Counted from the first letter of the stretch, positions 4,751-24,941 are shown. The stretch is DNA of 32,000 nt from Candidatus Saccharimonadota bacterium (GCA_041661045.1 JBAZVE010000001.1:1050001-1082000), one strand, 5' to 3'. Numbers and translations are program-made. The notes: generated from the sequence alone by a model not told the origin.

Positions 4751-5578
4751 ATGGATGCATTGCATGGTTTTGAGTTCGATTCTTTAACGGAATTGAGCGT
4801 TTCCGGCGCTTCACCGAGTTCGCTGAAAAGGCGGACTCGAGCCGCTCTTCCCAGTTTCCGCGCGGCCGTGCTGGGAAATCTGCTCCTGCTTGGAGCATGC
4901 GATAAACGGTGGGCTCAGGATCCGGAGGCTGATCCGTACGCGAACATCAGTTTGGATGGGGGTAGTGAAGCGGAGGAGGAAGAGGATGAGGATGATGATG
5001 AGGAGAGCTGGGATGGAGGCTCGGATGTGGATGAGGACGACGATGATGACGAAGGGGATGGGGGTGGCTCGGCACAAGGCGATGGTGGAGAAGCCTCGGA
5101 AGATGGGGGCGAAAGCTCCGGGGATGGCGGGTCTACGGATGGGGGTTCCGAGACTGAGACGGGAACCACGGTGATGGAGGCGGATTTGTGCAATGATCTG
5201 CGAGGAGAAGTCTCTTCTACTCCTCATTCATCGGTTCAATTTGTGGATACGGCCGAGGTGGCCGCGAGCTATGATCTGGGCACGGAGACTTTTCGGGATA
5301 CTTATGAAGTGGGTGGCTCCGATGCGGAGGCCCCCGTCTACGCTTGTGTTTATAATGAAGATTCTCAGGCCGTGGATCGCACGGAGGTGTTGAGGGAAGA
5401 TGGTGCTGAAATTCTTGTTCATGCGGCTTTTTCTGATCGCCCTGATGTCATTGTCTTGGTTTTTTTCGATCAAGAATTGAATATTCTTGCTGAATCGCCC
5501 ATTCCGGATCAGTCCCAGAACTTTGTTTGGTACTATAGTTTGGATGAGGATGGCAGTCTTCTCGACCACCTCAAGTAG
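4751..5578 (+). CDS. Hypothetical acidic low-complexity protein, possible lipoprotein
   Basis: 275-aa ORF with a lipobox-like LLLGAC preceded by the basic KRRTR. A D/E/G/S-rich tract follows (EAEEEEDEDDDEESWDGGSDVDEDDDDDEGDGGG...), then an ordinary C-terminal domain. An alternative TTG start at 4793 would give a normal-length signal peptide. Confidence 0.55.
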   Translation: MDALHGFEFDSLTELSVSGASPSSLKRRTRAALPSFRAAVLGNLLLLGACDKRWAQDPEADPYANISLDGGSEAEEEEDEDDDEESWDGGSDVDEDDDDDEGDGGGSAQGDGGEASEDGGESSGDGGSTDGGSETETGTTVMEADLCNDLRGEVSSTPHSSVQFVDTAEVAASYDLGTETFRDTYEVGGSDAEAPVYACVYNEDSQAVDRTEVLREDGAEILVHAAFSDRPDVIVLVFFDQELNILAESPIPDQSQNFVWYYSLDEDGSLLDHLK

Positions 5579-8435: not shown

Positions 8436-9212
8436 ATGGCTGCGATGTGGATTGATACGCATTGTCATCCGTTTGCGGCCTCGCTCCGTCAGGAGGAAGG
8501 TGCGGCTTTTGAGCGGGCGCGGGCGGCCGGAGTTTCGAAATTTATTGTGGTGGGGTATGACTTGGAGGCGAATCGAGATGTGTTGAGGATTATTGGTGAG
8601 GAGCCGGATGCTTGGGGAGCGGTGGGCATTCATCCGTGTGAGGCGAATCTTTTTAGTGAGGAGGTCTTGGCCTTGATCGAAACCCAAGCAGCTCACCCTA
8701 AAATTGTGGCGATTGGGGAGATGGGGCTTGATTACTACCACAAAGAGACGACTCGTGAAGAACAAGAAATAGCATTCAGAAGGCAAATTGCTTTAGCCAA
8801 AGAGCTGGACTTGCCTTGCATTGTGCATTCTCGCGACGCGGCCGAAGACACCTTGAGCATTTTGCTTGAAGAAAAAGCCACAAAAGTTGTTTTTCATTGC
8901 TTCAGTTATGGCCCGGACTTTGCTCGCAAGGTCTGGGAGGCGGGTTATTTCACCAGTTTCAGCGGAGTGGTGTCGTACCCCAATGCCAAGGAAATTCAAG
9001 AAGCGGCGCGCATTGCTCCGGCTCACTTGATTCTTACCGAAACCGATTGTCCTTGGCTCGCCCCCCAATCCATACGAGGGCAGCGCAATGAAATGGCCTA
9101 TGTGCGGGAAGTTGGGGAGAAGTTGGCGGAGTTAAGAACTATCTCAAAAGCAGAGATGCAAGCCCTCATTTTGGAGAATAGTCTTAACCTTTTTCGGTTC
9201 AATAATTATTGA
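8436..9212 (+). CDS. TatD-family metal-dependent hydrolase/DNase
   Basis: N-terminal WIDTHCHP metal-binding motif, GEMGLDYY, PCIVHSRDA, VVFHCFSYG and LILTETDCPWLAP. The start could be ATG 8436 or ATG 8445. Confidence 0.85.
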   Translation: MAAMWIDTHCHPFAASLRQEEGAAFERARAAGVSKFIVVGYDLEANRDVLRIIGEEPDAWGAVGIHPCEANLFSEEVLALIETQAAHPKIVAIGEMGLDYYHKETTREEQEIAFRRQIALAKELDLPCIVHSRDAAEDTLSILLEEKATKVVFHCFSYGPDFARKVWEAGYFTSFSGVVSYPNAKEIQEAARIAPAHLILTETDCPWLAPQSIRGQRNEMAYVREVGEKLAELRTISKAEMQALILENSLNLFRFNNY

Positions 9213-10218
9213 AGACTCTCAACCTTGCATCGTACTGGAATAAACCACTGTTTTGGAGGTGAGCGGTTGCCCTTTTTGGATCGATTGGAGCTTGAGTGGT
9301 AACTTCCCTAGTCAAACAGTGGGCCGCCCCCCCCAAAAAACGATTTTGACTGAGATCAAGCGTGTGTCGGGTGACGCCTGTTTCTGCCTCCTGTTGAACT
9401 TGCTTGCTTGTATATTTCCCGCTCGCAAATACTTCATCCCCCCATTGTACTTGATTGGGGGTGAGCGCATCTGCATCTGCCTTGGTGATGGGGTAGAGTG
9501 GTGCTGAAAGGTCTTTGGCAAGCTTTTCCATTTTTCTTCTTGATGGAGCTGTAAAAGCATCCATCCATGCAAAGAATTTAACGCCATCTTGAGTCACAAG
9601 ATGTGTGAAGACACAGTCTAGATGTAATCCGTCGACAAGATCGAAGCATTCATGTCTGATGGTTGGATCTTTTTCTGTTAGGAACTCTGTGACGACTTGT
9701 AGACCCTCTGCATCTGAACGAGTGGAGGTGCCTGAAATGTACCAAGTTTTTCCGTCCAATTTGAAAAATCGTGTATTACCTCCTTCGTGATATCCCTTTG
9801 GCATTGTTTGAGTCGGAACTCCAAGAGCATCGAAAAATACTTTGTTGAGTTCAGGCTCGTTTCTACGAGTGGGTGCACCCATATTTAAGAGGAGCATTGT
9901 GCCGTCCGGCCTTGTAAGGGAAGGATCTCGTAAAAATTCTATATCTTGAGTTAACCCATTTTCTTTAAAGACATCCTCTTTTGGATAGGGGACCACAATC
10001 AATGGCACGCCACTTCGTGCAAGTCGGGCGATCAAAGCTTGATGTTCTTGTCTTAGTCTTGTTACATCCCCCAACCATTTTTTCTCTTGAGCTTCTTGCA
10101 TATGGCCATTCCCGGGGGCTGCCTCTGGGATTCCATTTGGCCAATAGCCCACCTCTGCAGGTGGACTCTCCATGATCATGAGGTAATCACATTTCTCTCC
10201 CTCCATCAAGCTAGTCAT
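9199..10218 (-). CDS. Guanidino-group-modifying (GME) superfamily hydrolase, agmatine/peptidyl-arginine deiminase-like
   Basis: 339 aa. C-terminal catalytic-Cys motif LGGAAHCLTREV (compare GGGNIHCITQQ of agmatine deiminases), GLHLDCVF (His), an N-terminal PAEVGYWP segment, and DIEFLRDPS (compare D.W.RD.GP). The subfamily is assigned by eye only. Confidence 0.65.
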   Translation of the reverse strand: MTSLMEGEKCDYLMIMESPPAEVGYWPNGIPEAAPGNGHMQEAQEKKWLGDVTRLRQEHQALIARLARSGVPLIVVPYPKEDVFKENGLTQDIEFLRDPSLTRPDGTMLLLNMGAPTRRNEPELNKVFFDALGVPTQTMPKGYHEGGNTRFFKLDGKTWYISGTSTRSDAEGLQVVTEFLTEKDPTIRHECFDLVDGLHLDCVFTHLVTQDGVKFFAWMDAFTAPSRRKMEKLAKDLSAPLYPITKADADALTPNQVQWGDEVFASGKYTSKQVQQEAETGVTRHTLDLSQNRFLGGAAHCLTREVTTQAPIDPKRATAHLQNSGLFQYDARLRVFNNY

Positions 10219-10239
10219 AAAAAGAATTTCTTAAGGATA

Positions 10240-11046
10240 TTATCTTGGGAATTCCTTTCCTCGTGCAGTGAGGCTCACTGTCGCAGGATCAAAGGCAAGT
10301 CCTCTTGCTCGGATTTCCTCTAGCACTGGCTGGACATCAAAGCTCCTACAGCTGAAGAGATCAAAAAAGTATCTTCCTTCTGCGTCAACATGCAGGGCAA
10401 TGTGTGATTCTGCAATGAGAAGCACGCCATCTGTCCATCCTCCTTCTTTTGTAACATAAGGGGTCGTTACCGGGGTCATCCCTATTGATGGAGGCAACCT
10501 TTTCATGAAGTCATAGAGCCAATCGAGATCTCTTTGATCTTCAGGCAAGACCCCTTCCATCATAAGGTGAGGGCCAAAGGAGTGATCGATTTCAGCGGTA
10601 TCGGTGGGTTTGGTTTTCCCGCGTTCAAAAAGATCGTGTTTCTTCGTACGGAATTGCTCAATCATTTCACCCTTTAAAAGGTTTTTTAGATCTGGTCTTT
10701 TCCCACTTCGTCTTGTGGAAGTTCCGTTAGTAGGTCTGGCTCCTCTTGCGAGGGCAAGATCTGCAAATACGCAAGCCCTTGTTGGGTCACTGAAGCTATG
10801 GACGGTCATATGGCCTCCGGGGAAGACCCCCATTCCGGAAATTCCTTTATCTTCAGGTTTCTTTCCATCGAAGTAGGGGAAAAGGTGAGGAGGGTTGACC
10901 AGTGCTATTCCTAATTGATCGGCTATGTATTGCATAGAGCTGTGGAGATCCCTTAGATCTTCCAAATCTCTACAATTGCCTTTGTAGCCATCGTACATAA
11001 CATGATCGATTTTAAGGCGTGTTGGGTCAGGTCGTTTCGTGGACAT
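10240..11046 (-). CDS. Tandem-duplicated (pseudo-dimeric) AdoMetDC/SpeD-like pyruvoyl-dependent decarboxylase proenzyme
   Basis: The C-terminal half carries the class-1 AdoMetDC self-processing signature VLLIAE|SHIALHV...FFDLFSCRSFD (E213/S214 at 10405-10410). The N-terminal half has the same fold signature but is degenerate (GISGMGVFPGGHMTVHSF...CVFADLA, with no Ser). A basic linker joins the halves. Confidence 0.7.
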   Translation of the reverse strand: MSTKRPDPTRLKIDHVMYDGYKGNCRDLEDLRDLHSSMQYIADQLGIALVNPPHLFPYFDGKKPEDKGISGMGVFPGGHMTVHSFSDPTRACVFADLALARGARPTNGTSTRRSGKRPDLKNLLKGEMIEQFRTKKHDLFERGKTKPTDTAEIDHSFGPHLMMEGVLPEDQRDLDWLYDFMKRLPPSIGMTPVTTPYVTKEGGWTDGVLLIAESHIALHVDAEGRYFFDLFSCRSFDVQPVLEEIRARGLAFDPATVSLTARGKEFPR

Positions 11047-11327
11047 TTTAAAAAGTGTTAAAGATTACAAAGATTACATTTTTTTAGGAATTTCCATGCT
11101 TAGCATGTGGAATCCTTTTTTAAGTACAGTTTGGACACTTTGAAAAATTCTTCCGTAGACATATTTTTGTTCGTTGGTCATATCTATTACTTTTGTGAGT
11201 CTTTTTCCTTGTGAATAATAAGCGTTGATAGGAAACAGTGCCATCATAGGTTCACGCTTTATTAAAGTCAAATTTTGGCTTTAATAGGCCGCTTCTTCGC
11301 GTCTTTACAGAATTAATTTTTAGTGTT

Positions 11328-11936
11328 ATGCTCGTGACTACAACTCGAAGATTTATGGGACCTTCTGACACTCCTTCATCGGCTACCTGCTTGTATGATG
11401 CTCCAGTGAGTCTTTCCCATCCTTTGCTGCGAGAGATTATTCAGCAACTTTCTGCCGAACAAGTAAGCGCTTTATTTGGGGCGTCGTCTCTTACTCAAGA
11501 CGCAATGATGGAGCACCTTTTATCTCAGGCTGAAAAATTTGGATGTGATGTCCATGAACTTAGGGTTTATCTTTCAGACGCTGGATCTGCTCAATTTGTT
11601 ACTTTCCGTGGAGAAAATGCTGAAGACCGAATACTTGATCTTTGTAGGCCAGAATTGATGAAAGAGGATCCATTAACTTTTTCTGTGCGAACTTCTTTGG
11701 CGCGTGCCTTGGAGGAAGGTTTTGAAGAACTTCATGATTTGGATGCTTTGAGAGGAGAAGGTATCCCCCCTCATTTGGGCTATATCCTGGATCAGATCAC
11801 GATTGCTGGTGGGCAGCTTACAATAGGAGGCAGAATCCGCTCTATGCTTGGGGGCAGTCCTATTCCTCTTCGCTTCACATTTCCCTTGAGAGATCACTTG
11901 GAGGTGAACGGTGGGGATGAACTCACTTTTCAATAA
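11328..11936 (+). CDS. Hypothetical protein (202 aa)
   Basis: ATG-initiated ORF divergent from the decarboxylase operon. No motif recognised. Confidence 0.5.
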   Translation: MLVTTTRRFMGPSDTPSSATCLYDAPVSLSHPLLREIIQQLSAEQVSALFGASSLTQDAMMEHLLSQAEKFGCDVHELRVYLSDAGSAQFVTFRGENAEDRILDLCRPELMKEDPLTFSVRTSLARALEEGFEELHDLDALRGEGIPPHLGYILDQITIAGGQLTIGGRIRSMLGGSPIPLRFTFPLRDHLEVNGGDELTFQ

Positions 11937-11949
11937 GTTAAATTTTTAC

Positions 11950-11977
11950 TTGCAATCCAATTTTTTTGAGGTAGAGT
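11950..11977 (+). promoter_or_regulatory. Candidate promoter of the T-box leader
   Basis: TTGCAA (11950-11955), 16-nt spacer, TAGAGT (11972-11977). Stem I starts about 15 nt downstream. Confidence 0.4.
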
Positions 11978-11989
11978 TCCTTTGAAATG

Positions 11990-12265
11990 TCTGAAGAAAA
12001 GTAAGTGGACCCACGATGTTTGTAGAGAGCTGGGGGTGGTGAAAGCCCGGCAACTCGTCCCACTGAACGCCCTTCAAATTAAGACAGCAGCCGAAGAAAG
12101 CCCTTGTGGCAAGTAGGTGTCGCCGGCAGAGTCCGTTATCAAGCTCACGATATATTTCCTAGCTAACTAGAGATGTATCGAATAAGACTTTCCAGGGTAA
12201 CCTGGAAGTGAACAGGGTGGTACCGCGGATCATAAGATTCGCCCCTGACCTTAAGGGGTGTTTTT
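11990..12265 (+). promoter_or_regulatory. T-box riboswitch leader, putative Arg (CGC) specifier, controlling argG-argH
   Basis: The T-box sequence AGGGTGGTACCGCGG lies at about 12213-12228. The F-box CCGTTA is present in agtCCGTTAtc (about 12132-12140), as is an AGAGAG element (12023-12028). The distal hairpin is GCTGGG-GGTGGTGAAAG-CCCGGC. Stem III is TTCCAGG-GTAA-CCTGGAA (12190-12207). The specifier-loop geometry is UGAAG/AAAAGUA/AGUGGAC...GUCCCACU/GAA-CGC-C/CUUCA. A terminator hairpin follows at the 3' end. Confidence 0.8.
12241..12265 (+). terminator. Intrinsic terminator of the T-box leader
   Basis: GCCCCT-gacctta-AGGGGT followed by GTTTTT. Its 5' arm can instead pair with the AGGG of the T-box sequence (antiterminator). 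It ends 26 nt before the argG ATG. Confidence 0.75.
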
Positions 12266-12290
12266 CTATCATTTAAAACTTTTTCTTCTT

Positions 12291-13559
12291 ATGGACTCTA
12301 ATACTACTTATCAAAAAGCCGCTTCTTACGAGGCTCAGATAGGGCAGGTTAAGAAATGTGTACTGCTTTACTCGGGAGGTCTGGACACTTCTGTAATGTT
12401 GAAGTGGATTAAGGATACCTATGGGTGTGAAATTATTGCTTTGACTCTTGATCTTGGTCAACAGGCCGATGATCTTGAAGAGGTGAAGGCCAAGGCGCTT
12501 CGGTTGGGGGCTTCTAAGGCTTATGTTTTAGATTGTAAGGAAGAGTTTGCCAATGACTATATCTCTAAGGCCATCAAGGCAAATGCTTCTTATCAGGGGG
12601 ATTACCATTTAAGTACACCCATCGGTAGACCTTTGATTGCTAAAAAGGCTGTCGAAATTGCACTTCAAGAGGGGGCTGATGCCATTGCTCATGGATGTAC
12701 AGGCAAAGGGAATGATCAGGTGCGTATTGAGGCAACGGTTCTTTGTTATGCTCCAAAAATGAAAATTATTGCTCCTGTTCGCGAATGGGGAATGGGCCGA
12801 GAGGAAGAAATTGAATATGCAAAAAAACATGGGATAGAAACTCCTCAAACTAAGAAAAATCTTCCTTATTCCTGGGATGACAATATGTGGGGCCTTACCG
12901 GAGAGGGTGGGGAAATTGAAAACCCAAGTCTCAAACCTAAGTTGGAGCTTATTTTGCAGGTTTGTAAGACTCAGGAAGAGGCCTCAGACCAAAAGGAAGA
13001 ATTTGAGATTGAGTTTGCTGCCGGCGTCCCGGTTGCAATCAATGGAGAGAAGAAAGCCTTGCAAGATATTATTAAGGATTGTAATGCCATGGGGGCAAAA
13101 CATGCCATTGGATATGTGATTCTTATTGAAGATCGTTTGGTTGGCTTGAAAGTTCGTGGAGTTTATGAAAACCCCGGAGCGCATATTATTGTTACCACTC
13201 ATAAGAATTTAGAGAAAATTGTTTCTACTCAAACTGAAAATGAACTCAAGGAATTCATGGACAGCAAGTGGGCTTATATGTGCTACAGTGCAAAGTGGAT
13301 GGACCCTACAATGAAGCATGTAAACAGTTTCATCGCCAGTATGAATGAAAAAGTTACGGGTAAGGTGAGATTTTCCCTTTATAAGGGTAAAATAGATGTA
13401 CTCACGGTAAATTCCCCTTATTCTCTTTTCAACGAAAATTTGGCAACTTTCAATAAAAATGTGGCTTTCAACCAAAATGCGTCTGCTGGTTTCATAGAAA
13501 TTTACTCCTTGGCGATGAAAACTCACTACCAAGTAGAACAAGAAAATCACTCCAAATAA
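12291..13559 (+). CDS. argG: Argininosuccinate synthase
   Basis: LLYSGGLDTS ATP-PPase motif, IAHGCTGKGNDQVR, PYSWDDNMWG and IEDRLVGLKVRGVYENPG. The track start GTG 12258 lies inside the terminator hairpin, so ATG 12291 (MDSNTTYQ) is preferred. Confidence 0.9.
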   Translation: MDSNTTYQKAASYEAQIGQVKKCVLLYSGGLDTSVMLKWIKDTYGCEIIALTLDLGQQADDLEEVKAKALRLGASKAYVLDCKEEFANDYISKAIKANASYQGDYHLSTPIGRPLIAKKAVEIALQEGADAIAHGCTGKGNDQVRIEATVLCYAPKMKIIAPVREWGMGREEEIEYAKKHGIETPQTKKNLPYSWDDNMWGLTGEGGEIENPSLKPKLELILQVCKTQEEASDQKEEFEIEFAAGVPVAINGEKKALQDIIKDCNAMGAKHAIGYVILIEDRLVGLKVRGVYENPGAHIIVTTHKNLEKIVSTQTENELKEFMDSKWAYMCYSAKWMDPTMKHVNSFIASMNEKVTGKVRFSLYKGKIDVLTVNSPYSLFNENLATFNKNVAFNQNASAGFIEIYSLAMKTHYQVEQENHSK

Positions 13560-13561
13560 CT

Positions 13562-14866
13562 ATGTCTAAACTTTGGCAAAAGGAAGGTGCTGTTAAACTC
13601 AACAGTGTGGTGGAACGCTATACGGTTGGGGAGGACTATCTCCTAGATAGGGTTCTTTTCCCCTACGACATTATTGGGACGCTTGCTCATGCTAAGGCTT
13701 TGGCCCAAGCGAAAGTTATTTCTTTGGAAGAGCTTTCTAGCATTCAAAAAACTCTCAAAGCTTTAGCGGAATTGGTGAAGAGCGGTGATGTGACGATTTC
13801 TATTGAAGATGAGGATTGCCATACCGTTATGGAAAACTACCTCGTCTCAGAGCTGGGAGATCTTGGTAAAAAGATTCATACGGGTCGTAGTCGAAATGAT
13901 CAATCGTTGGTAGCGCTTAGGTTGTTCATGAAAGAGAACCTCCTGGTTACACAGCAACTTGTTAAAAAACTTGCTGAGGAGATACTGGTGTATGCCAAAA
14001 AGTACCGTTCTGTGGCTATGCCTGGTTACACTCACACACAACAAGCTATGCTCACGAGTGTCGGCCACCACATGCTTTCGTTTGTAGAGAGTTTGTTGGA
14101 TGACTTTTCTTTCCTGGATAGTGTGCTTAAACATATCGATAAAAATCCACTGGGATCGGCAGCTGGTTTTGGCAGTAATGTTCCTCTAGATCGTGAGTTG
14201 ACTACAAAGGAACTTGGATTCGCGTCGACTCAAATTAACTCTATTTATTGTCAGAGTAGCCGGGGTAAATTTGAGAGCGTTTACTTGGAGGGAGTTAATC
14301 AGATCATGATGACTCTTGGACGATTGGCCGCTGATTTTCTAATGTTTACTACCAGGGAATTTTCTTTCTTTGAAGTCGCTGCGGATCTCACGACGGGATC
14401 TTCCATTATGCCCCAGAAAAAAAATCTGGATTTATTGGAAGTTTTACGCGCTAATCTTTCCGTTTGTTTCGCAAACAAAGAAATGGTGCAAGGGATTTCA
14501 AAGGGCTTGCCTTCCGGTTATAACAGAGATTATCAACTTATCAAAAAAGCCGTTATTCAAAGCACTTCCATTGTTCAGGATAGTTTGCAGCTGATTTCTG
14601 TTTTTATTGGCGGTATCAAGCCTAAATCTGATGAGATTTTAACTAAAACACAGGATGACATTTATTCCGCAGATTTAGCTACTCAGCTGAGCTTCGAAAA
14701 AGGAATACCCTTTCGTGATGCCTACCAGGAGGTTATGACGAAGTTTAAAGATGGCTTTCGAGCCCTTGGTGAAGATCCCCAAAAAGTGTTACAAGGTCGT
14801 GCTACTCTGGGTGCACCTGGTAATGATGCTTTGAGTTACTATGAAAGTTTACTGATTTCACTATGA
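13562..14866 (+). CDS. argH: Argininosuccinate lyase
   Basis: Fumarate-lyase family signature GSSIMPQKKNLD, plus HTGRSRNDQ and MPGYTHTQQA. It starts 2 nt after the argG stop. Confidence 0.9.
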   Translation: MSKLWQKEGAVKLNSVVERYTVGEDYLLDRVLFPYDIIGTLAHAKALAQAKVISLEELSSIQKTLKALAELVKSGDVTISIEDEDCHTVMENYLVSELGDLGKKIHTGRSRNDQSLVALRLFMKENLLVTQQLVKKLAEEILVYAKKYRSVAMPGYTHTQQAMLTSVGHHMLSFVESLLDDFSFLDSVLKHIDKNPLGSAAGFGSNVPLDRELTTKELGFASTQINSIYCQSSRGKFESVYLEGVNQIMMTLGRLAADFLMFTTREFSFFEVAADLTTGSSIMPQKKNLDLLEVLRANLSVCFANKEMVQGISKGLPSGYNRDYQLIKKAVIQSTSIVQDSLQLISVFIGGIKPKSDEILTKTQDDIYSADLATQLSFEKGIPFRDAYQEVMTKFKDGFRALGEDPQKVLQGRATLGAPGNDALSYYESLLISL

Positions 14867-15030
14867 CTACTTCCGACTTTTCGCAAGATTCTGAGCCTAT
14901 TTAAAAAAAGACCGTTTTGTGTCAGTGCTTATGATAGAGTCGGTGAAGTTGAGGTAGATCGGAGGATGAAGATGGTGTTATACTCTGCTATTGCAGGTTA
15001 ACGAGTCTCTATTTCATTGCTATCCCTTCT

Positions 15031-15987
15031 ATGTTTCATCTCCGCCAAGTCATTCTTACGAGTTCTCAGCGGACGATTTTGAGTGATCTGTTGGAGTCTT
15101 TTAGTTCCGAAGATGTTTACGCACAGAGCTATTCTATTTCTGGATATCTCCATCAGCGCACGGATTTTTTTCGCCTGGCGCCCCCTTTTTTAAAAGATAT
15201 ATTCTTATCCTATCTCGATGCGGGATCTTTTGCTGATGCACTTGTTATCAAGAACTGTCCACTGGATTTGGATTTGCCATCCACTCCTCTTGATGAATCT
15301 CCATCTTTTTTTAAAAGTACTTTCTTGTCGGAGCATCTACTGCTCATGGCCAGTACTTTGCTGGGTACGCCTTTTGCTATTGATGCCGAAAACGCCGGGT
15401 TTTTGATCCATAACATTTATCCTGTCAAAAAACTTTCACAAAACCAATCTTCCAAATCTTCGGGCGTTATGCTGACTCTTCATACGGAATTGTCTTGTAT
15501 GACGGATCCTCCCGATTTCCTTGTTCTTTTGGGTTTACGCACGGCCGACTATAAGGTGAATACGCCTATTTTGAAATTGGACGAGCTTCTCGACTTCTTA
15601 ACGGAGTCAGAAATTGCTCTTTTGTATGAGCCTCTTTTTATTACAGAAATAGATGAATCACTGCGTAAAGATTTAAACAGTACGGTTTTTACTGAACCTT
15701 TCCGAATTCTTTCCCTCGTGGATGGGATTCGTGTTTGGCGCTATGATGTAGAGTATACCCGAGGTATTACTCCCGAGAGTCAGGCCGTTGTTCAGAAAAT
15801 AGTAGCCGTTCACGGGCCACTTTTCCATAATGTTGTTATTGATCCGGGCGATTTGCTTGTTATTAATAATACAAGAGTTGCTCATGGGCGAGAACCGTTT
15901 GAAGCAAAATACGACGGTTCGGATCGTTGGCTTCAGAGAGTGAATATTCATTTGAGCGATACTCAAAAAACTTTTTATAAAGTATAA
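15031..15987 (+). CDS. Fe(II)/2-oxoglutarate-dependent oxygenase, clavaminate-synthase-like amino-acid hydroxylase family (VioC/AsnO-like)
   Basis: H-x-E facial-triad motif and following segment: LTLHTELSCMTDPPDFLVLLGLR (compare LHTE.AF...RPDF..LLCLR). Distal His/Arg motif: LVINNTRVAHGREPF. Tail: DRWLQRVNI. Confidence 0.8.
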   Translation: MFHLRQVILTSSQRTILSDLLESFSSEDVYAQSYSISGYLHQRTDFFRLAPPFLKDIFLSYLDAGSFADALVIKNCPLDLDLPSTPLDESPSFFKSTFLSEHLLLMASTLLGTPFAIDAENAGFLIHNIYPVKKLSQNQSSKSSGVMLTLHTELSCMTDPPDFLVLLGLRTADYKVNTPILKLDELLDFLTESEIALLYEPLFITEIDESLRKDLNSTVFTEPFRILSLVDGIRVWRYDVEYTRGITPESQAVVQKIVAVHGPLFHNVVIDPGDLLVINNTRVAHGREPFEAKYDGSDRWLQRVNIHLSDTQKTFYKV

Positions 15988-15994
15988 GATTTCT

Positions 15995-17659
15995 ATGAAT
16001 AAAGCTGGGCAACGTTATATCCTCGGTTTCTCAGATTCCTTGCATGATAGATCGGTGTGTATTTTCAGAGATGCTGTTCCCCTCATTGCTATTGAGGAAG
16101 AGAGACTTTCTCGTGTCAAACATGGACTTGCACTCTATGGAGAGTCCAGGAAAAATCCTTCGATCTTTTCCCAAATGGAGTTGGAAAAATCCTCTTCTGA
16201 AGAAAACGAAGCTCGGTTGCAACCCTCCATTGATTACTGCTTAAACGCTTTGGGCATCACTATGGATGACATTGATGTGATTGCGGGGAATTCACTGCAT
16301 TTGGCTTTTCCGTTTCATGGTAACTCCATTCATATTAATCATCATTTGGCGCATGCCTCTGCGGCTTTTTATGCTTCTGGATTTCGAGAGGCTGCTATTT
16401 TTGTGGCGGATGGTTACGGCGATCTTTGCAACAGTCAGTGCTACGAGACCTTGATGTTGGCCAAAGGTAGAGATCAATCTATTAAGAAGCTTAAGTTGGT
16501 CACGGGCCATGTGACGAGCTATTACGATATGGAAAATTCTTTAGGAGTTTTCTATCGGATAGGAACTCTTTTGTCCGGTTTTGGAATGTTTGATGAGGGG
16601 AAAATGATGGGTTTGGCGGCGTATGGCGAACCAAAATATTATGATTTTATAAAGGATTTTCTTATTTTTCAGCCGGATTGTGTTTCGATTAAAAATGGTG
16701 AGCTTTTCAATGCTTTTTCCGATGCTGTGCAAGATAGAAGTGCTTTTGAACTGAGAGCAAATATAGCCGCTTCGTTTCAACGTGTTTTTGAGGAAATTGT
16801 TTTCTTCTACATCCATCATCTTTATGAAATAGCAGAGAGTGAGAATTTGTGTATCTCTGGTGGGATTGGACTCAACTGCGTGATGAATGCCAAGGCTTTA
16901 ATGCAATCGAAATTTAAGAATGTTTTTGTTTTCCCAGGCCCTGGAGACAATGGAATTTCTTTTGGAGCAGCCTATTTTGTTGCTCATCAGCTTTTGGGCC
17001 TTCCGCGTACTGAGCCGTTGGACATTGCTTATTTTGGCAAGGCCTATACTCAGAGTCAGGAGTTGGAAGTCTTAGAGAAGTATAGCGACCAAGTAGAGTT
17101 TGAAGAGCTGAATGAAGATGAGCTCACGACTCTTGCTGCTGATTTATTGGTGAAAGACAATGTGATCATGTGGTTTCAGGAGGGATGTGAATTTGGCCCA
17201 AGAGCTTTGGGCCACCGAAGCTGTTTAGGGAACCCTATGCGTGTAGAGACGAAAGACTATATCAATGCGAAAGTGAAGTTCAGAGAGACATTCAGGCCTT
17301 TGGCGCCGATTGTTTTGGAAGAATACATGCGAGATTTTTTTGATATCAGCTGTCCATCGCCATTTATGCTTTTTTCTCCTCGTGTTAGAGAGAAGACTAA
17401 GGAAATGGCTCCTGGCATTGTTCATGTGGATGGCACTTCAAGGTTGCAGACGATCAATCGCAAACAAAATGCAAAACTGTATTCCTTGATTCATAAATTT
17501 TTTGATCAAACTCAGGTGCCTATTATCCTCAATACTTCTTTCAATGGTAAGGATGAGCCAATTGTGGAGACTCCCGAAGATGCTCTCAAGAGCTTTTTGA
17601 GTTCCCCTGTGGAACACTTATTTATTGATAATTATCACATAACCAAAAACATATCTTGA
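15995..17659 (+). CDS. NodU/CmcH-family (TobZ-like, ATP-dependent) carbamoyltransferase
   Basis: 554 aa. ILGFSDSLHDRSVCIF...AIEEERLSRVKH, HHLAHASAAFYASGF, ISGGIGLNCVMN, FGPRALGHRSCLGNP, FRPLAP, VHVDGTSRLQT and ILNTSFNGKDEPIV. It starts 7 nt after the oxygenase stop. Confidence 0.85.
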   Translation: MNKAGQRYILGFSDSLHDRSVCIFRDAVPLIAIEEERLSRVKHGLALYGESRKNPSIFSQMELEKSSSEENEARLQPSIDYCLNALGITMDDIDVIAGNSLHLAFPFHGNSIHINHHLAHASAAFYASGFREAAIFVADGYGDLCNSQCYETLMLAKGRDQSIKKLKLVTGHVTSYYDMENSLGVFYRIGTLLSGFGMFDEGKMMGLAAYGEPKYYDFIKDFLIFQPDCVSIKNGELFNAFSDAVQDRSAFELRANIAASFQRVFEEIVFFYIHHLYEIAESENLCISGGIGLNCVMNAKALMQSKFKNVFVFPGPGDNGISFGAAYFVAHQLLGLPRTEPLDIAYFGKAYTQSQELEVLEKYSDQVEFEELNEDELTTLAADLLVKDNVIMWFQEGCEFGPRALGHRSCLGNPMRVETKDYINAKVKFRETFRPLAPIVLEEYMRDFFDISCPSPFMLFSPRVREKTKEMAPGIVHVDGTSRLQTINRKQNAKLYSLIHKFFDQTQVPIILNTSFNGKDEPIVETPEDALKSFLSSPVEHLFIDNYHITKNIS

Positions 17660-17743
17660 AGCCATTGCTCTCCATGTTTTCCCTTCTCGCACCTATCAAT
17701 ATAGGTGTGTTTTTGTATGATGTTATTCAAAACTCTTTGAACC

Positions 17744-19163: not shown

Positions 19164-19209
19164 TAAGTTTATTCAGTATCTTGAATCTTTGTTTGTAATC
19201 CCTAAAGAG

Positions 19210-19821: not shown

Positions 19822-19975
19822 TGTCGAAAATTTTTGACTGATTTGACGCAGACTACCGCAAAGATTGATGATGCAACCACTTTCAGGCCCATCTTGTATT
19901 GGAAGAGAGTATCTTGATTTGATGCCAGAAAGGCTGTAAGCTGACCTTCTGAAGCAATTACAGTCATTCATTATT

Positions 19976-21976
19976 ATGTCAACTGCAGAATCTCATGTTT
20001 ATAGCCTTTGTGATGAGCTGACCTCTGTTGTTGAAGGTACTCTTGGAAAGAAACTGGGGCAACCTGTTACGAGGGCGAGAGTTGAGGGAGCGGACTATGG
20101 TTTGAACCTCCATGCTTTGCGTGAGGCTACAGAAAGTATAGATGATGTTGTTGTGAGAATCAGGGACCTTATTATAGGATTGATCCCTGCTGGTATTACG
20201 ATTTCTGCTGAAAAAGGTTTTATTAATTTTCAAGTTTCGAACGAAGCGTTGGGACGGGTTGTTGCAAATATTGTTGATCAGCCTAACGGAGGAATAGAGC
20301 CTGTCGGTGATCGTACTATGTTGGAGTTTTTTAGTCCCAACACCAATAAGCCCATGCACTTGGGGCATCTTAGAAATATTGCATTGGGAGAAAGTTTGGC
20401 CCGATTGCTCCAGTTTTTCGGACACGATGTCACCAAAGTGAATCTGTTCAATGATCGTGGTGCTCATATTTGTAAATCTATGCTTGCCTACCAATTGTAT
20501 GGCGGTGAAGCCACGCCTGAGTCCACCGGCGTTAAAGGCGATCATTTTGTTGGGGATTACTATGTTCGTTACGAGAAAGATTTGCAGGCACAGCTAAAAC
20601 CCATTATTGAGCGCATCAAGAGTGAGCCTGAGATGGCAGCAGAGCTGTTGGCATCCAGCGAAGAACTCGCAAAACTTGAATCGGCAATGAAAGATCAGCC
20701 TACTGATAAAACACTCAAGCTTGCTTTTGAAAAAGCCAAGAAAAAACACGCAAACTTGGAAGAACGTGTTGTAAGTCAGGCTAAAGCTGAAGCTCCCCTC
20801 GTTCTTGAAGTGAATGAAATGCTTCAAAAATGGGAAGATGGAGATCCGGAGGTGCGGGCGCTATGGGAAAAGATGAACGGCTGGGCTATTGGAGGTATGG
20901 AACAAACGCTGGATCGTCTCGACACGCATTTTGACATTATCTATTTCGAATCACAGACTTATAAGCTTGCGATGGACATGATTCAGAAAGGTTTGGACAG
21001 TGGTACCTTTGAAAGGGATCCAAGCGGTGCTGTAGTTGCTGATTTAGAAAAACTTGGGGTGCGGGATAGAAAGGGGAATCCCTTGAGTGGTAAGAAAGTT
21101 TTGCTGCGCTCTGATGGAACGAGTGTATACATCACTCAGGATTTGGCTATGGCGGAACTCAAAGCGAAGGACTATCACCCGGATAACAGTATGTATGTAG
21201 TGGCTGATGAACAACTTCGTCACTTCGAAGTCCTTTTTGGAATTCTTAAGGCTTTGGGCTACGGCTGGGCTGATAAACTCAAACACATTCCTTATGGTAT
21301 GGTGGACCTTCCCTCGGGACGAATGAAATCTCGTGAAGGAACGGTGGTGGATGCGGACGATATCCTTGATGCGCTGCGTGACAATGTAAAAGCAGTGAGT
21401 GCTCAATCTTCGGATCTTGCAGATGCCGGAAGGGTGCCTCGACGGGAGGTGCTTGAGGATGAAGTCGCTGACAAAATTGGTATTGCAGCTATGCGCTATT
21501 ACCTTCTGTCGAGTCGCCCTGACAGTAGAATAAAATTTGATCCGGAACAATCGGTAAAGCTTGAAGGGAAGACAGGTCCTTATATTCTTTATCAATATGT
21601 CCGCAGTGGAAAGATTCTCCAAACTGCTGAAGACAATGGTGGGGGAGTTTCAACGCCTGGCGCAGCTCCGGATTTTTCTACTCTGGCTGACCCAGCTGAG
21701 CATGACCTTTTGATGACATTGGTTGAATTTACAGATTGTATGAAAACTATTCAGAGGACTCTTGATCAAACGCTTTTATCTGATTATGTGTACAAGTTGG
21801 CTAAAGCGTTTGCGGTTTTCTACGAGAAGTGTCCGATTTTTAAGCCGGCACTGGCGGGTCAAGACCCCATTGCTCCTGAACTTAAAAATACCCGACTTGC
21901 ACTTGTTCAGTATTCCCATTCCTTGTTATCGAAATCTTTGGAATTGCTTGGAATAGAGAAAGTGGAGCGAATGTAG
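19976..21976 (+). CDS. argS: Arginine--tRNA ligase
   Basis: Class I HIGH motif (PNTNKPMHLGHLRN), NDRGAHI, a KMSKS-equivalent GRMKSREGTVV, and a C-terminal anticodon-binding (DALR-type) region ending in the typical terminal RM. At 666 aa it carries a K/E/A-rich insertion between the HIGH and MKSR motifs. Confidence 0.9.
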   Translation: MSTAESHVYSLCDELTSVVEGTLGKKLGQPVTRARVEGADYGLNLHALREATESIDDVVVRIRDLIIGLIPAGITISAEKGFINFQVSNEALGRVVANIVDQPNGGIEPVGDRTMLEFFSPNTNKPMHLGHLRNIALGESLARLLQFFGHDVTKVNLFNDRGAHICKSMLAYQLYGGEATPESTGVKGDHFVGDYYVRYEKDLQAQLKPIIERIKSEPEMAAELLASSEELAKLESAMKDQPTDKTLKLAFEKAKKKHANLEERVVSQAKAEAPLVLEVNEMLQKWEDGDPEVRALWEKMNGWAIGGMEQTLDRLDTHFDIIYFESQTYKLAMDMIQKGLDSGTFERDPSGAVVADLEKLGVRDRKGNPLSGKKVLLRSDGTSVYITQDLAMAELKAKDYHPDNSMYVVADEQLRHFEVLFGILKALGYGWADKLKHIPYGMVDLPSGRMKSREGTVVDADDILDALRDNVKAVSAQSSDLADAGRVPRREVLEDEVADKIGIAAMRYYLLSSRPDSRIKFDPEQSVKLEGKTGPYILYQYVRSGKILQTAEDNGGGVSTPGAAPDFSTLADPAEHDLLMTLVEFTDCMKTIQRTLDQTLLSDYVYKLAKAFAVFYEKCPIFKPALAGQDPIAPELKNTRLALVQYSHSLLSKSLELLGIEKVERM

Positions 21977-24131: not shown

Positions 24132-24941
24132 ATGAAAATCCTCCGCGTTTCGCCCGATTATTTTGCCATTCTTTACGCCATCAACCCTCACATGAAAGTG
24201 GGGAGTGTGGACGGCGCCAAAGCGGCGGAACAGTGGGAGGCTTTGGGAGGTGTTTATGAAAAAATAGGTGCTGAACTTTTTGTTTTGCCGGGGCAGCCGG
24301 GTTATCCGGACATGGTTTTTTGTGCCAACCAAAGTCTACCTTTTGAGCGAGCGGATGGGTCAAAGGCGGTGATTCTTTCCAACATGGCCAATCCGGAACG
24401 ATCGGGAGAAGTTGTTTTTTTTGAGCAGTGGTTTTTGGCTCATGGATATGAGCTGGTGAAACTACCTCCGGATCTCACTTTTGAAGGGATGGGAGATTTT
24501 ATTTATTCCGCGGATCGGGCTTTTTTATGGGCAGGAATCGGGCCCCGAACTACAGAGGTGGCGCATCGGGCCATCGAGCACATCATTGGGAAACCGGTGC
24601 GGTCCCTGGAGTTGGCTCATCCGGACTTTTATCATTTGGATACCTGTCTTGCGATTGTGGATGCAGAAACGGCGGTTTTTTATCGGCCGGCTTTTACGGA
24701 GGAGGGCGCTTTAGAAATCTTGCGCAACCACCCTCGTTCGATTGAGGTGACGGAAGAAGAAGCGTATCGGTTTGCATGCAATCTGCATTGTCTGGATCAA
24801 AAATTTGTGGTGATTCCGGAAGGCTGTCCACGACTTGAAGGGATCTTGAAAGAGCGAGGTTTTGAGGTTTACGGCGTGGATACTTCTGAATACTTAAAAT
24901 CGGGGGGGTCTGTTTTTTGCATGAAACTTGATCTGGAATAA
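24132..24941 (+). CDS. Amidinotransferase/DDAH/arginine-deiminase-fold enzyme (GME superfamily)
   Basis: 269 aa. VFCANQ, FEGMGDF, FYHLDTCLA (catalytic His region) and a C-terminal KSGGSVFCM (catalytic Cys), as in DDAH/amidinotransferase-family proteins. Confidence 0.7.
   Translation: MKILRVSPDYFAILYAINPHMKVGSVDGAKAAEQWEALGGVYEKIGAELFVLPGQPGYPDMVFCANQSLPFERADGSKAVILSNMANPERSGEVVFFEQWFLAHGYELVKLPPDLTFEGMGDFIYSADRAFLWAGIGPRTTEVAHRAIEHIIGKPVRSLELAHPDFYHLDTCLAIVDAETAVFYRPAFTEEGALEILRNHPRSIEVTEEEAYRFACNLHCLDQKFVVIPEGCPRLEGILKERGFEVYGVDTSEYLKSGGSVFCMKLDLE

What the first reader, a model, noticed from the sequence alone, without database searches (positions are those of the whole stretch)
9199..11046. 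Fused pseudo-dimeric AdoMetDC-like pyruvoyl enzyme in an operon with a deiminase-like enzyme: candidate arginine-to-agmatine-to-carbamoylputrescine pair
Seen in sequence: the 268-aa protein is two AdoMetDC/SpeD-like halves in one chain. Only the C-terminal half keeps the self-cleavage/pyruvoyl site (IAE|SHIALHV, E213/S214 at 10405-10410). The N-terminal half has GGH in place of ESH, so it cannot form pyruvoyl. A basic linker of about 50 aa joins the halves. The next gene, 21 nt downstream, is a GME-fold hydrolase ending in GGAAHCLT, as in agmatine deiminases. Established knowledge: prokaryotic class-1 AdoMetDCs are small homo-oligomers. Eukaryotic AdoMetDC is a fused pseudo-dimer, but its active site is in the N-terminal half. 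SpeD/SpeH homologues have been neofunctionalised to arginine decarboxylases in Crenarchaeota. Inference: this is a single-active-site fused decarboxylase, acting on arginine or another basic amino acid. It would feed a deiminase, which links it thematically to the arginine block next door.
Basis: partly seen in the sequence, partly recalled or inferred. Interest (0 to 1): 0.7.

Follow-up and report, generated by a model that had tools for sequence, protein, structure and literature searches.

The report
Fused one-site SpeD-like decarboxylase, arginine-linked

Summary
Two minus-strand ORFs lie 21 nt apart. The 268-aa protein is two AdoMetDC/SpeD-fold domains in one chain: GGH in the first, ES|H…C in the second (hhalign of N against C halves 97.5%, E 7e-12; AF2 pLDDT 84.5). 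It is not a one-off. About 70 clusters (50% identity) share this polarity, opposite to the published SpeD-SpeDC fusions and to eukaryotic AdoMetDC. Conservation is complementary between the halves, which fits one composite active site. Both halves descend from the SpeDA (arginine decarboxylase) clade. The protein lacks the AdoMetDC-invariant Pro and the ornithine-decarboxylase (SpeDC) diagnostic residues. In Peregrinibacteria the gene always adjoins ArgRS or an ArgRS remnant. The 339-aa partner is not an agmatine deiminase: it gives no PAD_porph match and its nearest structures are DDAH-1 and ArgZ. It keeps the guanidino-binding Asp pair and the residues aligned to DDAH-1's alpha-carboxylate-contacting Arg pair, so it should act on L-arginine. 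Relatives replace or extend it with CtlX (citrullinase) or an AstA/AstB/AstE-like set. Whether the decarboxylase takes arginine (about 0.5) or ornithine (about 0.35) is unresolved. It is a new variant of a known kind, of moderate to high interest.

The parts
10240..11046 (-). Gene for the 268-aa fused double SpeD-fold pyruvoyl decarboxylase proenzyme (stop codon included)
   Evidence: ORF. Pfam AdoMet_dc 54 bits with 2 matched stretches. Nine close clusters and about 70 full-length fused relatives. AF2 model.
10624..11019 (-). N-terminal 'dead' SpeD-fold domain (about residues 10-141). It lacks the Ser and Cys but keeps D19, S70, H83 and D96.
   Evidence: N-half profile against T. maritima AdoMetDC, E 7e-8. 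D19, G68, H83 and D96 are present in 71/71 fused sequences and S70 is Ser/Thr in 69/71.
10810..10818 (-). G77-G78-H79, which replaces the E-S-H self-cleavage motif in the N domain
   Evidence: Translation. Aligned to T. maritima E62-S63-H64. Ser occupies this position in only 2 of 71 family members.
10690..10746 (-). The actual disordered basic linker (residues 101-119)
   Evidence: pLDDT below 50 at residues 105-113, with no secondary structure. Translation.
10243..10599 (-). C-terminal 'live' SpeD-fold domain (residues 150-268) with E213|S214, H215, H219 and C233
   Evidence: Pfam 33.6 bits. Aligned to 1tlu. 36-42% identical to single-domain SpeDA-type proteins.
10405..10410 (-). Predicted autoprocessing site E213|S214; Ser214 would become the pyruvoyl group
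   Evidence: Translation. Ser in 69/71 and Cys233 in 69/71 fused sequences.
9199..10218 (-). Gene for the 339-aa guanidino-modifying (GME-fold) hydrolase of a small new branch near DDAH/ArgZ
   Evidence: PF19420 26.6 bits. Five clusters. AF2 pLDDT 82. Foldseek hits DDAH-1 (E 4e-13) and ArgZ (TM 0.82). Invariant R97, D98, R118, E145, R167, H199, D201, H300 and C301.
9310..9333 (-). GGAAHCLT, containing the predicted nucleophile Cys301
   Evidence: Translation. Aligned to the Cys of the window's DDAH/ArgZ-like protein.
11074..11271 (-). 65-aa ORF that is a remnant of the ArgRS anticodon-binding (DALR) domain, directly upstream of the fusion; a promoter-like site lies at 11271-11243
   Evidence: 54% identical to the C-terminus of the L001 DALR-only protein. 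Promoter scan.
19976..21976 (+). Arginyl-tRNA synthetase, the constant neighbour of the fusion in related genomes (here displaced and divergent)
   Evidence: Pfam. Adjacent to the fusion in L001, L002, L005, L007, L008, L013, L014, L019 and L020.
24132..24941 (+). Second, more canonical DDAH/arginine-dihydrolase-like enzyme (269 aa) in the same window
   Evidence: NF045659 205 bits and Arg_dihydro 175 bits, both below the equivalog cut-offs. hhalign to the 339-aa family: 87.5%, E 3.6e-6.

Best explanation
The 268-aa protein is an intramolecular pseudo-heterodimer of two class-1b SpeD-fold domains, both descended from the SpeDA (pyruvoyl arginine decarboxylase) clade. It should cleave itself between E213 and S214. 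That would give a 213-residue chain and a 55-residue chain carrying an N-terminal pyruvoyl group. It has one composite active site. The C domain supplies the pyruvoyl group and Cys233. The 'dead' N domain supplies His83, Ser70 and Asp19, the counterparts of T. maritima His68, Ser55 and Glu11. This is the same logic as in eukaryotic AdoMetDC, where Ser229 and His243 lie outside the pyruvoyl-bearing half, but with the domain order reversed. I commit to L-arginine as the most likely substrate (about 0.5), giving agmatine; L-ornithine is second (about 0.35). The 339-aa partner is a Cys-His-Glu guanidino hydrolase of a new branch next to DDAH/ArgZ. It acts on L-arginine or a close alpha-amino-acid guanidine, most likely producing citrulline, which CtlX converts to ornithine in relatives. 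It does not act on agmatine. The operon therefore encodes two exits from the arginine pool, co-located with ArgRS. Shown by computation: the architecture, the polarity, the conservation asymmetry, the ancestry, and the family placement of the partner. Inferred: self-cleavage, the substrates, and how the two reactions relate physiologically.
For: Architecture and fold. Polarity is shared by about 70 fused clusters. Complementary conservation across 71 sequences: in the N domain, D19, G68, H83 and D96 are 71/71, S70 is Ser/Thr in 69/71, and Ser at the pyruvoyl position occurs in only 2/71. In the C domain, S214 and C233 are 69/71, while H219 is 60/71 and the Glu11 equivalent is only 21/71. The roles of human Ser229/His243 and T. 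maritima Ser55 are described in PMC3975893. Ancestry: the C half is 36-42% identical (E 1e-20 to 1e-28) to Vampirovibrionales, Melainabacteria and Omnitrophota single-domain proteins, against E 1e-5 for AdoMetDC and 3e-3 to 9e-3 for SpeDC ODC domains. In 9 of 11 metagenome loci of that single-domain clade a SpeB homologue follows immediately, and SpeY follows in L018 and L030. This is the ADC-type cluster of PMC10407285 and PMC13625781. The protein has no AdoMetDC-invariant Pro and none of the SpeDC Gln/Thr/Phe residues. The Rosetta-stone protein P0087 joins a fused family member to a PAD_porph agmatine deiminase. ArgRS or a DALR ORF is adjacent in every Peregrinibacteria locus. Partner: DDAH-1 and ArgZ are its nearest sequences and structures. 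It carries the guanidino-type motifs F-L-R-D and H-L-D, where CtlX has FPNN and HTN. R118 and R167, aligned to DDAH-1 R98 and R145, stay invariant down to 30% identity.
Against: If the partner uses arginine, the two enzymes of a tight two-gene operon are not consecutive steps, which is unusual. Every downstream module in relatives is predicted to end in ornithine: the 339-aa type plus CtlX, or AstA/AstB/AstE-like. That would fit an ornithine decarboxylase better. CtlX is known to sit next to ornithine-consuming enzymes (PMC9007349). Arg/Orn specificity is known to switch within this clade. No agmatinase, AguA/B, SpeY or HSS was seen in the window or in the Peregrinibacteria loci. P0087 is only about 26% identical to this protein. 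The model coordinates could not be inspected, so the composite site is inferred from alignment and conservation, not from geometry.
Confidence: 0.4

Rival explanations
1. Linear arginine -> citrulline -> ornithine -> putrescine route. The 339-aa enzyme deiminates arginine, or fully dihydrolyses it where CtlX is absent. CtlX, or the AstA/AstB/AstE-like set in other lineages, yields ornithine. The fused enzyme is then an ornithine decarboxylase that arose independently of the SpeDC clade.
For: The fusion-CtlX-339aa operon is tight in L001 and L002. At the same position L014/L015 carry AstA/AstB/AstE-family genes. The only intermediates shared by the two module types are arginine and ornithine. 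The partner keeps alpha-carboxylate-type Arg residues. CtlX scores above its equivalog cut-off (376 against 334 bits) and is typically adjacent to ornithine-using enzymes. Only one specificity switch is needed, of a kind documented in this clade.
Against: The live domain lacks all SpeDC diagnostic residues, and its nearest clade is ADC-type. Li et al. found that ODC activity arose only once among SpeD homologues. The most conserved neighbour is ArgRS, not the ornithine-forming module, and several lineages have the fusion with no adjacent module (L003/L006, L007, L013). These genomes also carry arginine-biosynthesis genes (argB/C/D/F) that would supply ornithine directly.
Confidence: 0.33
2. 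The fusion is an arginine decarboxylase and the 339-aa enzyme is an unconventional agmatine deiminase producing N-carbamoylputrescine. In relatives the CtlX-like enzyme would then hydrolyse N-carbamoylputrescine to putrescine.
For: ADC ancestry of the fusion. P0087 fuses a family member to a true agmatine deiminase. The guanidino-type enzyme followed by a ureido-type enzyme mirrors AguA/AguB chemistry. This would make the operon a coherent linear pathway.
Against: There is no PAD_porph match, hhalign to a true agmatine deiminase gives 2%, and no agmatine deiminase structure appears in the top 50 fold hits. The two Arg residues aligned to DDAH-1's carboxylate contacts are invariant and would sit near the ammonium end of agmatine. 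The CtlX homologue is equivalog-level to the putative citrullinase. The Ast-like module in L014 would also have to act on decarboxylated substrates.
Confidence: 0.12
3. The fused protein is a true S-adenosylmethionine decarboxylase for spermidine synthesis, and its neighbours are unrelated.
For: Source annotations call it an AdoMetDC or 'AdoMet/arginine decarboxylase-like' enzyme. It has the Pfam AdoMet_dc fold.
Against: It lacks the Pro that is invariant in true AdoMetDCs. TIGR03330 scores 38.7 bits against a cut-off of 75.65. No aminopropyltransferase appears in the window or in any related locus. It is far closer to the ADC-type clade than to T. maritima AdoMetDC.
Confidence: 0.03

Closest known systems
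SpeD-SpeDC fusion proteins of Desulfotignum phosphitoxidans, Ca. Omnitrophica OLB16 and Victivallis vadensis (Li et al. 2023, PMC10407285)
   Same: Both are bacterial single chains made of two class-1b SpeD-fold domains. In the V. vadensis form only one domain self-processes.
   Different: In those proteins the N-terminal domain is a true AdoMetDC (ES, HxWPE) and the C-terminal domain is a SpeDC ODC or a decayed copy, and the genes sit next to speE. Here the N domain is the decayed one and the C domain is live. Both halves derive from the SpeDA-type clade, no speE is nearby, and the constant neighbour is ArgRS.
Eukaryotic class 2 AdoMetDC (human 1jl0/1msv)
   Same: A fused pseudo-dimer with one pyruvoyl site, in which residues outside the pyruvoyl-bearing half (Ser229, His243) are needed for processing. 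The whole chains align structurally (prob 1.00, TMq 0.46-0.48).
   Different: The live half is N-terminal in eukaryotes and C-terminal here. No sequence relationship was detected, only a structural one, and the substrate is probably different. This looks like an independent fusion event.
Single-domain SpeDA arginine decarboxylases (Marinimicrobia/Melainabacteria/Omnitrophota type)
   Same: 36-42% identity to the live domain. Shared FGPHLM, IAESH, FSC(K/R)xFD and RGxxFPR motifs, and no AdoMetDC Pro. The N half keeps their PYxxGxxPEDKG(I/V)(S/T)G loop.
   Different: Those are homodimers with two equivalent sites and are encoded next to speB/speY. This is a fused heterodimer-like chain with one site, encoded next to ArgRS.
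Trypanosomatid AdoMetDC/prozyme heterodimer (5tvf, 5tvm)
   Same: A catalytically dead paralogue pairs with a live one. Both structures appear among the fold hits.
   Different: There the partners are two separate class-2 chains, with the dead one acting as an allosteric activator. Here the two class-1b-type domains are fused in one chain.
DDAH-1 and the arginine dihydrolase domains of ArgZ/AgrE
   Same: These are the closest sequences and structures to the 339-aa protein. Shared features are the Cys-His-acid triad, the guanidino-binding Asp pair and the two carboxylate-contact Arg residues.
   Different: Scores are far below every equivalog cut-off (24.7 against 300 bits; 20.6 against 450). 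The protein has about 50 extra N-terminal residues, a His before the nucleophile Cys, and a conserved C-terminal NNY tail. The family comprises only 5 clusters plus a type-2 paralogue.
Agmatine deiminase AguA (PAD_porph, PF04371)
   Same: The same superfamily fold and a GG..HC motif around the nucleophile.
   Different: No Pfam match, no profile match (2%), and no structural neighbour among the top 50.

Membership tests
Class 1b AdoMetDC/SpeD fold (Pfam PF02675) | Pfam match above the gathering score | tested here: met
   54 bits against a cut-off of 25, with two matched stretches.
Class 1b AdoMetDC/SpeD fold (Pfam PF02675) | Self-processing Glu-Ser motif with His at +5 and the downstream Cys (T. 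maritima S63, H68, C83) | tested here: met
   Met in the C domain (E213-S214, H219, C233). Not met in the N domain (G77-G78, no Cys).
Bona fide AdoMetDC (SpeD) | Invariant Pro in the HTWPE segment (Li et al. 2023) | tested here: not met
   The C domain reads H219-V-D-A-E and the N domain reads H83-S-F-S-D.
Bona fide AdoMetDC (SpeD) | NCBIfam equivalog score (TIGR03330) | tested here: not met
   38.7 bits against a cut-off of 75.65.
Bona fide AdoMetDC (SpeD) | Partner aminopropyltransferase (SpeE) encoded in the genome | tested here: inconclusive
   None found in the 32-kb window or in any related locus. The rest of the genome could not be searched.
SpeDC (SpeD-derived ornithine decarboxylase clade) | Diagnostic Gln, Thr, Phe and Tyr around the processing site (Li et al. 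2023, Fig. 8 and Fig. S5) | tested here: not met
   D. phosphitoxidans reads Q-LIE-T-S-LISGH-F..VY.D; this protein reads L-LIA-E-S-HIALH-V..YFFD.
SpeDA (SpeD-derived arginine decarboxylase) | ESH-type site without the AdoMetDC Pro, and nearest relatives encoded with agmatine-using enzymes | tested here: met
   36-42% identity to the clade whose members are followed by speB in 9 of 11 loci, and by speY in two.
SpeDA (SpeD-derived arginine decarboxylase) | Decarboxylation of L-arginine to agmatine | not testable with these tools
   This needs an enzyme assay.
SpeD-SpeDC fusions (Li et al. 2023) | N-terminal domain is a self-processing true AdoMetDC, and the gene lies upstream of speE | tested here: not met
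   The N domain has GGH and no Cys. No speE is nearby.
Eukaryotic class 2 AdoMetDC | Fused two-domain chain with the pyruvoyl site in the N-terminal half | tested here: not met
   The architecture is fused, but the live site is in the C-terminal half. Structural match TMq 0.46-0.48.
Agmatine deiminase (PAD_porph, PF04371) | Pfam or profile match to the family | tested here: not met
   No PF04371 hit at E<=1. hhalign to the agmatine deiminase domain of P0087 gives 2%.
Agmatine deiminase (PAD_porph, PF04371) | Closest structures are agmatine deiminases | tested here: not met
   The top 50 Foldseek hits are DDAH, ArgZ/AgrE, amidinotransferases, AstB and ADI, among others, with no agmatine deiminase.
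DDAH/ArgZ branch of the guanidino-modifying superfamily | Pfam DDAH_eukar above the gathering score, with a Cys-His-acid triad | tested here: met
   26.6 bits against 23. C301, H199 and E145 are invariant.
DDAH/ArgZ branch of the guanidino-modifying superfamily | Two guanidino-binding Asp residues (FTRD and HLD motifs) | tested here: met
   F95-L-R-D98 and H199-L-D201 are invariant. The criterion comes from PMC9007349.
DDAH/ArgZ branch of the guanidino-modifying superfamily | Arg pair that contacts the substrate alpha-carboxylate (DDAH-1 R98, R145) | tested here: met
   R118 and R167 align to them and are invariant down to 30% identity.
Orthologue of DDAH or of arginine dihydrolase ArgZ | NCBIfam equivalog cut-off | tested here: not met
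   24.7 bits against 300 (DDAH) and 20.6 against 450 (Arg_dihydro).

The most novel reading that the evidence does not exclude
This would be a second, independent prokaryotic invention of the 'eukaryote-style' fused AdoMetDC fold, made by duplication of a SpeDA gene followed by complementary decay of the halves into one composite site with reversed polarity. In Peregrinibacteria it would have been recruited as a new ornithine decarboxylase. Together with a new DDAH-like arginine deiminase and CtlX (or an Ast-like module), it would form an arginine -> citrulline -> ornithine -> putrescine route that has not been described and that, by the cofactor needs of the homologous families (my knowledge, not tested here), would probably require neither PLP nor a metal.
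Probability: 0.3. Interest if true: 0.75.

Novelty: new variant of a known kind. Interest (0 to 1): 0.6.

Why it matters
Fusion of two SpeD-fold domains followed by loss of one active site is the accepted origin story of eukaryotic AdoMetDC. The only bacterial fusions described so far are SpeD-SpeDC, with the live AdoMetDC domain at the N-terminus, and they were used to propose which lineage gave rise to the eukaryotic enzyme.

A separate and fairly large family (about 70 clusters at 50% identity) with the opposite polarity and a different parentage shows that this fusion-and-decay path has been taken more than once. That weakens any argument that infers ancestry from the mere existence of such a fusion. 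The family also offers a clean natural experiment on which residues each protomer contributes to a pyruvoyl active site.

Separately, the 339-aa protein founds a small new branch of guanidino hydrolases. The swapping of downstream modules (339-aa type plus or minus CtlX, against AstA/AstB/AstE-like) next to a constant ArgRS-decarboxylase core points to arginine handling in candidate-phyla-radiation bacteria that current annotation misses. The genes are at present labelled 'AdoMetDC' or left unnamed.

Tried and rejected
- The search for related loci with the broad alignment A3 failed because no stretch was conserved enough.
- Short hits matching only the N half looked at first like stand-alone 'dead' subunits (split genes). 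On reading the sequences, most have frameshifted or junk tails, so I did not count them.
- The N-terminal extensions of P0048, P0056 and P0068 show no relation to any partner enzyme.
- Contexts of the distant fused members P0171, P0168 and P0167 were uninformative, as were those of P0172 and P0198.
- I tested whether the AstE-like gene of L014 is the orthologue of the AstE-like gene in L001's arginine-biosynthesis cluster. They are only 26% identical, so they are paralogues and no inference follows.
- Phage records hold only single-domain homologues.
- A defence-system reading is rejected: PADLOC gave no hit, and the AdoMetDC-like domain in the HEC-07 preprint is unrelated.
- There is no riboswitch or T-box upstream, and no convincing terminator between the two genes.
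- The Peribacteria genome paper does not mention arginine or polyamines.
- The metagenome scan added no new fused loci.
- Citrulline and succinylated intermediates were considered as the decarboxylase substrate and rejected. The two alternative downstream modules share only arginine and ornithine.


Full report
**1. Observation**

The two ORFs are real. The first is 10240-11046(-), 268 aa, and the second is 9199-10218(-), 339 aa, with a 21-nt gap between them. Translation confirms ES at 10405-10410, GGH at 10810-10818 and GGAAHCLT at 9310-9333.

Each half of the 268-aa protein matches Pfam AdoMet_dc on its own: 23.9 bits for the N half, 33.6 bits for the C half, and 54 bits for the whole protein against a cut-off of 25. 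Direct similarity between the halves is weak (BLAST E 0.06; 14 of 500 shuffles reach the score), so the duplication is old. Family profiles of the two halves do match each other (hhalign 97.5%, E 7e-12, 97 columns). The N-half profile alone finds T. maritima AdoMetDC over its full length (E 7e-8). In that alignment G77-G78-H79 pair with E62-S63-H64, S70 with S55, and H83 with H68.

An AlphaFold2 model built from eight homologues is confident (pLDDT 84.5, pTM 0.85) and repeats the same secondary-structure order twice. Foldseek superposes one half on T. maritima AdoMetDC (TM 0.80). It aligns the whole chain to human AdoMetDC proenzyme over about 320 columns (prob 1.00, TMq 0.46-0.48).

One detail of the finding needs correcting. 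Most of the supposed 50-aa linker is helix 120-132 plus strand 136-141, which complete the first domain. Only residues ~101-119 are disordered. The longer start codon at 11046 is supported by the conserved RLKIDHVM segment, which forms strand beta-1. The public gene call begins at Met17.

**2. This is a family, not a one-off**

Close homologues form nine 90%-identity clusters. By record titles they come from Peregrinibacteria/Peribacteria MAGs, some labelled Gracilibacteria. A profile search of 1.84 billion representatives gave 1316 hits at E<=1e-3. Among the best 150, about 70 are full-length fused proteins of 200-360 aa.

In 71 sequences that cover both halves, the polarity is essentially constant:

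| T. maritima residue | N-domain equivalent | C-domain equivalent |
|---|---|---|
| Ser63 (pyruvoyl) | Gly in 58, Ser in only 2 | S214 in 69 |
| Cys83 | Cys in 5 | C233 in 69 |
| Glu11 | D19 in 71 | E164 in 21 |
| Ser55 | S70, Ser/Thr in 69 | position 206, Ser 37 / Asp 20 |
| His68 | H83 in 71 | H219 in 60 |
| Asp80 | D96 in 71 | D229 in 68 |

In human AdoMetDC, Ser229 and His243 are required to process Ser68, and T. maritima Ser55 is the Ser229 equivalent (PMC3975893). By residue number those two residues lie outside the pyruvoyl-bearing half. The conservation pattern here is therefore what one expects if a single composite site survives. The pyruvoyl group and Cys would come from the C domain, and His, Ser and Asp from the N domain. 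The mirror-image site has decayed. This is an inference from alignment and conservation, because I could not inspect the model coordinates.

**3. Relation to what is published**

Li et al. 2023 (PMC10407285) described bacterial SpeD-SpeDC fusions. In those the N-terminal domain is a true AdoMetDC and the C-terminal domain is an ODC, or in Victivallis a decayed copy, and the genes lie upstream of speE. The authors used them to model the origin of eukaryotic AdoMetDC. The protein here has the opposite polarity and a different parentage.

- **Not a true AdoMetDC.** Li et al. report a Pro as invariant in true AdoMetDCs (HTWPE). It is absent here: the C domain reads HVDAE and the N domain HSFSD.
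- **Not a SpeDC ODC.** The SpeDC diagnostic Gln, Thr and Phe can be read from their Fig. S5 (MTQLIETSLISGHF…VYLDVFSC). They are absent here (GVLLIAESHIALHV…YFFDLFSC).
- **Closest to the SpeDA type.** The live domain is 36-42% identical (E 1e-20 to 1e-28) to single-domain proteins from Vampirovibrionales, Melainabacteria and Omnitrophota. By comparison, E is 1e-5 for T. maritima AdoMetDC and 3e-3 to 9e-3 for SpeDC domains.
- **That single-domain clade is of the arginine-decarboxylase type.** P0174 sits in a SpeD-homologue/arginase-family/deoxyhypusine-synthase-family cluster. In 9 of 11 metagenome loci of this clade a SpeB homologue follows immediately, and SpeY follows it in L030. A Vampirovibrio chlorellavorus homologue is among the validated ADCs.

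The N half keeps the clade's PYxxGKxPEDKGISG loop, which the C half has lost. Both halves therefore probably come from tandem duplication of one SpeDA-type gene. I found no description of this family in the searchable literature.

**4. The partner is not an agmatine deiminase**

The 339-aa protein gives only weak matches: DDAH_eukar (26.6 bits), ADI (21.5 bits), and the NCBIfam DDAH and arginine dihydrolase models far below their cut-offs. PAD_porph gives nothing. Its family is tiny, with five clusters plus a type-2 paralogue at 30-34% identity.

The AF2 model (pLDDT 82) is closest to human DDAH-1 (E 4e-13) and to the arginine dihydrolase domains of ArgZ/AgrE (TM up to 0.82, rmsd 3.1-3.3 A). 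Amidinotransferases, AstB and ADI follow. No agmatine deiminase appears in the top 50. A profile comparison with the true agmatine deiminase domain of P0087 gives 2%. The same comparison with the window's own DDAH/ArgZ-like protein gives 87.5% (E 3.6e-6).

The residues point to a guanidino substrate that carries an alpha-amino-acid end:

- Price et al. (PMC9007349) note that guanidino-acting members keep two Asp residues (FTRD, HLD), while the putative citrullinase CtlX has Asn there (FPNN, HTN).
- The 339-aa family has F-L-R-D98 and H199-L-D201. The CtlX homologues of L001/L002 have FPNN and HTN.
- Aligned to human DDAH-1, R118 and R167 correspond to R98 and R145, D92 to D73, E145 to D127 and H199 to H173. 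C301 corresponds to C274 by motif position only, since that alignment stops at residue 197.
- In DDAH-1, Arg145 (with Arg98 close by) contacts the alpha-carboxylate and Asp73 the alpha-amino group (PMC10958460).
- R118 and R167 remain invariant in the 30%-identical paralogues. D92 does not, though an acidic residue sits one position earlier in those paralogues.

A pocket with two conserved arginines at the carboxylate end fits L-arginine and argues against agmatine.

**5. Genomic context**

In every Peregrinibacteria locus the fusion lies directly beside ArgRS or a free-standing ArgRS anticodon-domain ORF. In the window, the 65-aa ORF at 11074-11271 is a remnant of that domain.

What follows the fusion varies by lineage:

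| Loci | Genes following (or near) the fusion |
|---|---|
| L003/L006 | nothing |
| this window | the 339-aa gene alone |
| L001, L002 | CtlX (376 bits against a 334 equivalog cut-off) plus the 339-aa type |
| L005, L008, L019 | CtlX, and in L005/L019 the type-2 paralogue, a few kb upstream (L008 is cut at the contig end) |
| L014/L015 | AstA-, AstB- and AstE-family genes |

By homology, all of these modules remove the guanidino group from arginine and end in ornithine.

**6. Substrate of the decarboxylase**

Two lines of evidence pull in different directions.

- **For arginine (ADC):** the ancestry described above, the constant ArgRS adjacency, and a Rosetta-stone protein (P0087) in which a distant family member is fused to a true PAD_porph agmatine deiminase (267 bits).
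- **For ornithine (ODC):** the ornithine-forming modules, and the known habit of CtlX to sit next to ornithine-consuming enzymes.

Arg/Orn specificity is known to switch in this clade. The two alternative modules share only arginine and ornithine as intermediates, which excludes citrulline or succinylated intermediates as the substrate.

The net chemistry, arginine to putrescine, is the same in either order. I put arginine at about 0.5, ornithine at about 0.35 and AdoMet at about 0.03. If the enzyme is an ADC working in parallel with an arginine deiminase, one possible rationale is arginine-dependent proton consumption and ammonia release in a fermentative organism. That is speculation.

**7. 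Verdict**

The sequence observation is confirmed and extended. The mechanistic idea of a single-site fused decarboxylase is supported.

The finding is a new variant of a known kind: a previously undescribed, reversed-polarity, SpeDA-derived fused family, together with a new small branch of guanidino hydrolases. It is interesting mainly for enzyme evolution. It shows an independent route to a eukaryote-like fused AdoMetDC fold, and it bears on arguments about the origin of the eukaryotic enzyme. It also matters for arginine and polyamine metabolism in candidate-phyla-radiation bacteria.

Noticed in passing
window 24132-24941 (+): A second GME-fold enzyme of 269 aa lies just after efp. It is much closer to canonical DDAH and arginine dihydrolase (205 and 175 bits, both below the equivalog cut-offs). 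It has Asn in 'FCAN', which I recall matching the position of ArgZ Asn71. It could convert arginine straight to ornithine.
   Followed up: partly
window ~11000-20000: A lower-GC block (0.40-0.42 against 0.47-0.50 elsewhere) carries argG, argH, a VioC/GntD/clavaminate-synthase-like Fe/2OG hydroxylase (15031-15987), a NodU-like carbamoyltransferase (15995-17659), an ArgE/LysK-like M20 deacylase (17744-18736) and a GNAT (18621-19163). It looks like a small cluster for a modified arginine-type amino acid, possibly acquired horizontally.
   Followed up: partly
window 11074-11271 (-); L003 7516-7944; L001 7191-7979: Free-standing ArgRS anticodon-binding (DALR) ORFs of 142 and 262 aa sit directly upstream of the fusion in relatives. 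The window keeps only a 65-aa remnant. It is unclear whether these are decaying duplicates or functional small proteins. One weakly matches the NrtL 'ArgS-related anticodon-binding protein' model.
   Followed up: partly
P0087, P0057, P0068, P0048/P0056 (proteins): Some members of the fused family carry extra domains: a PAD_porph agmatine deiminase (P0087), a radical SAM domain (P0057), a CxxCxxCC domain (P0068), and an unassigned N-terminal extension of 240-330 aa (P0048, P0056).
   Followed up: partly
L002 4775-5977; L008 3815-4810; L014 4815-5948: A threonine-synthase-like PLP (PALP) gene is conserved immediately upstream of ArgRS-fusion in several Peregrinibacteria. Its role is unknown.
   Followed up: no
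L001 12340-13335 (-); L005 178-1197; L019 1301-2320: A type-2 paralogue of the 339-aa enzyme (30-34% identity) keeps the same catalytic and Arg residues. In L005/L019 an ORF of 407-412 aa with no Pfam match lies between it and CtlX on the other strand.
   Followed up: partly
window 11328-11936 (+), 19189-19821 (+), 423-2651 (+), 4751-5578 (+), 23394-24332 (-): Several sizeable ORFs have no Pfam or NCBIfam match. The last one overlaps a tRNA and the DDAH-like gene and is probably not a real gene.
   Followed up: no
window 29730-31187 (+); 23421-23493, 24980-25051, 25088-25170 (+): A complete 16S rRNA gene and three tRNA genes are present. The 16S gene could place the organism precisely, but no rRNA reference search was available.
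   Followed up: no
window 10999-11046 (-): The public gene call for this protein (P0001, 252 aa) starts at Met17. Conservation and the model support the upstream ATG at 11046. No clear Shine-Dalgarno sequence precedes either gene.
   Followed up: yes
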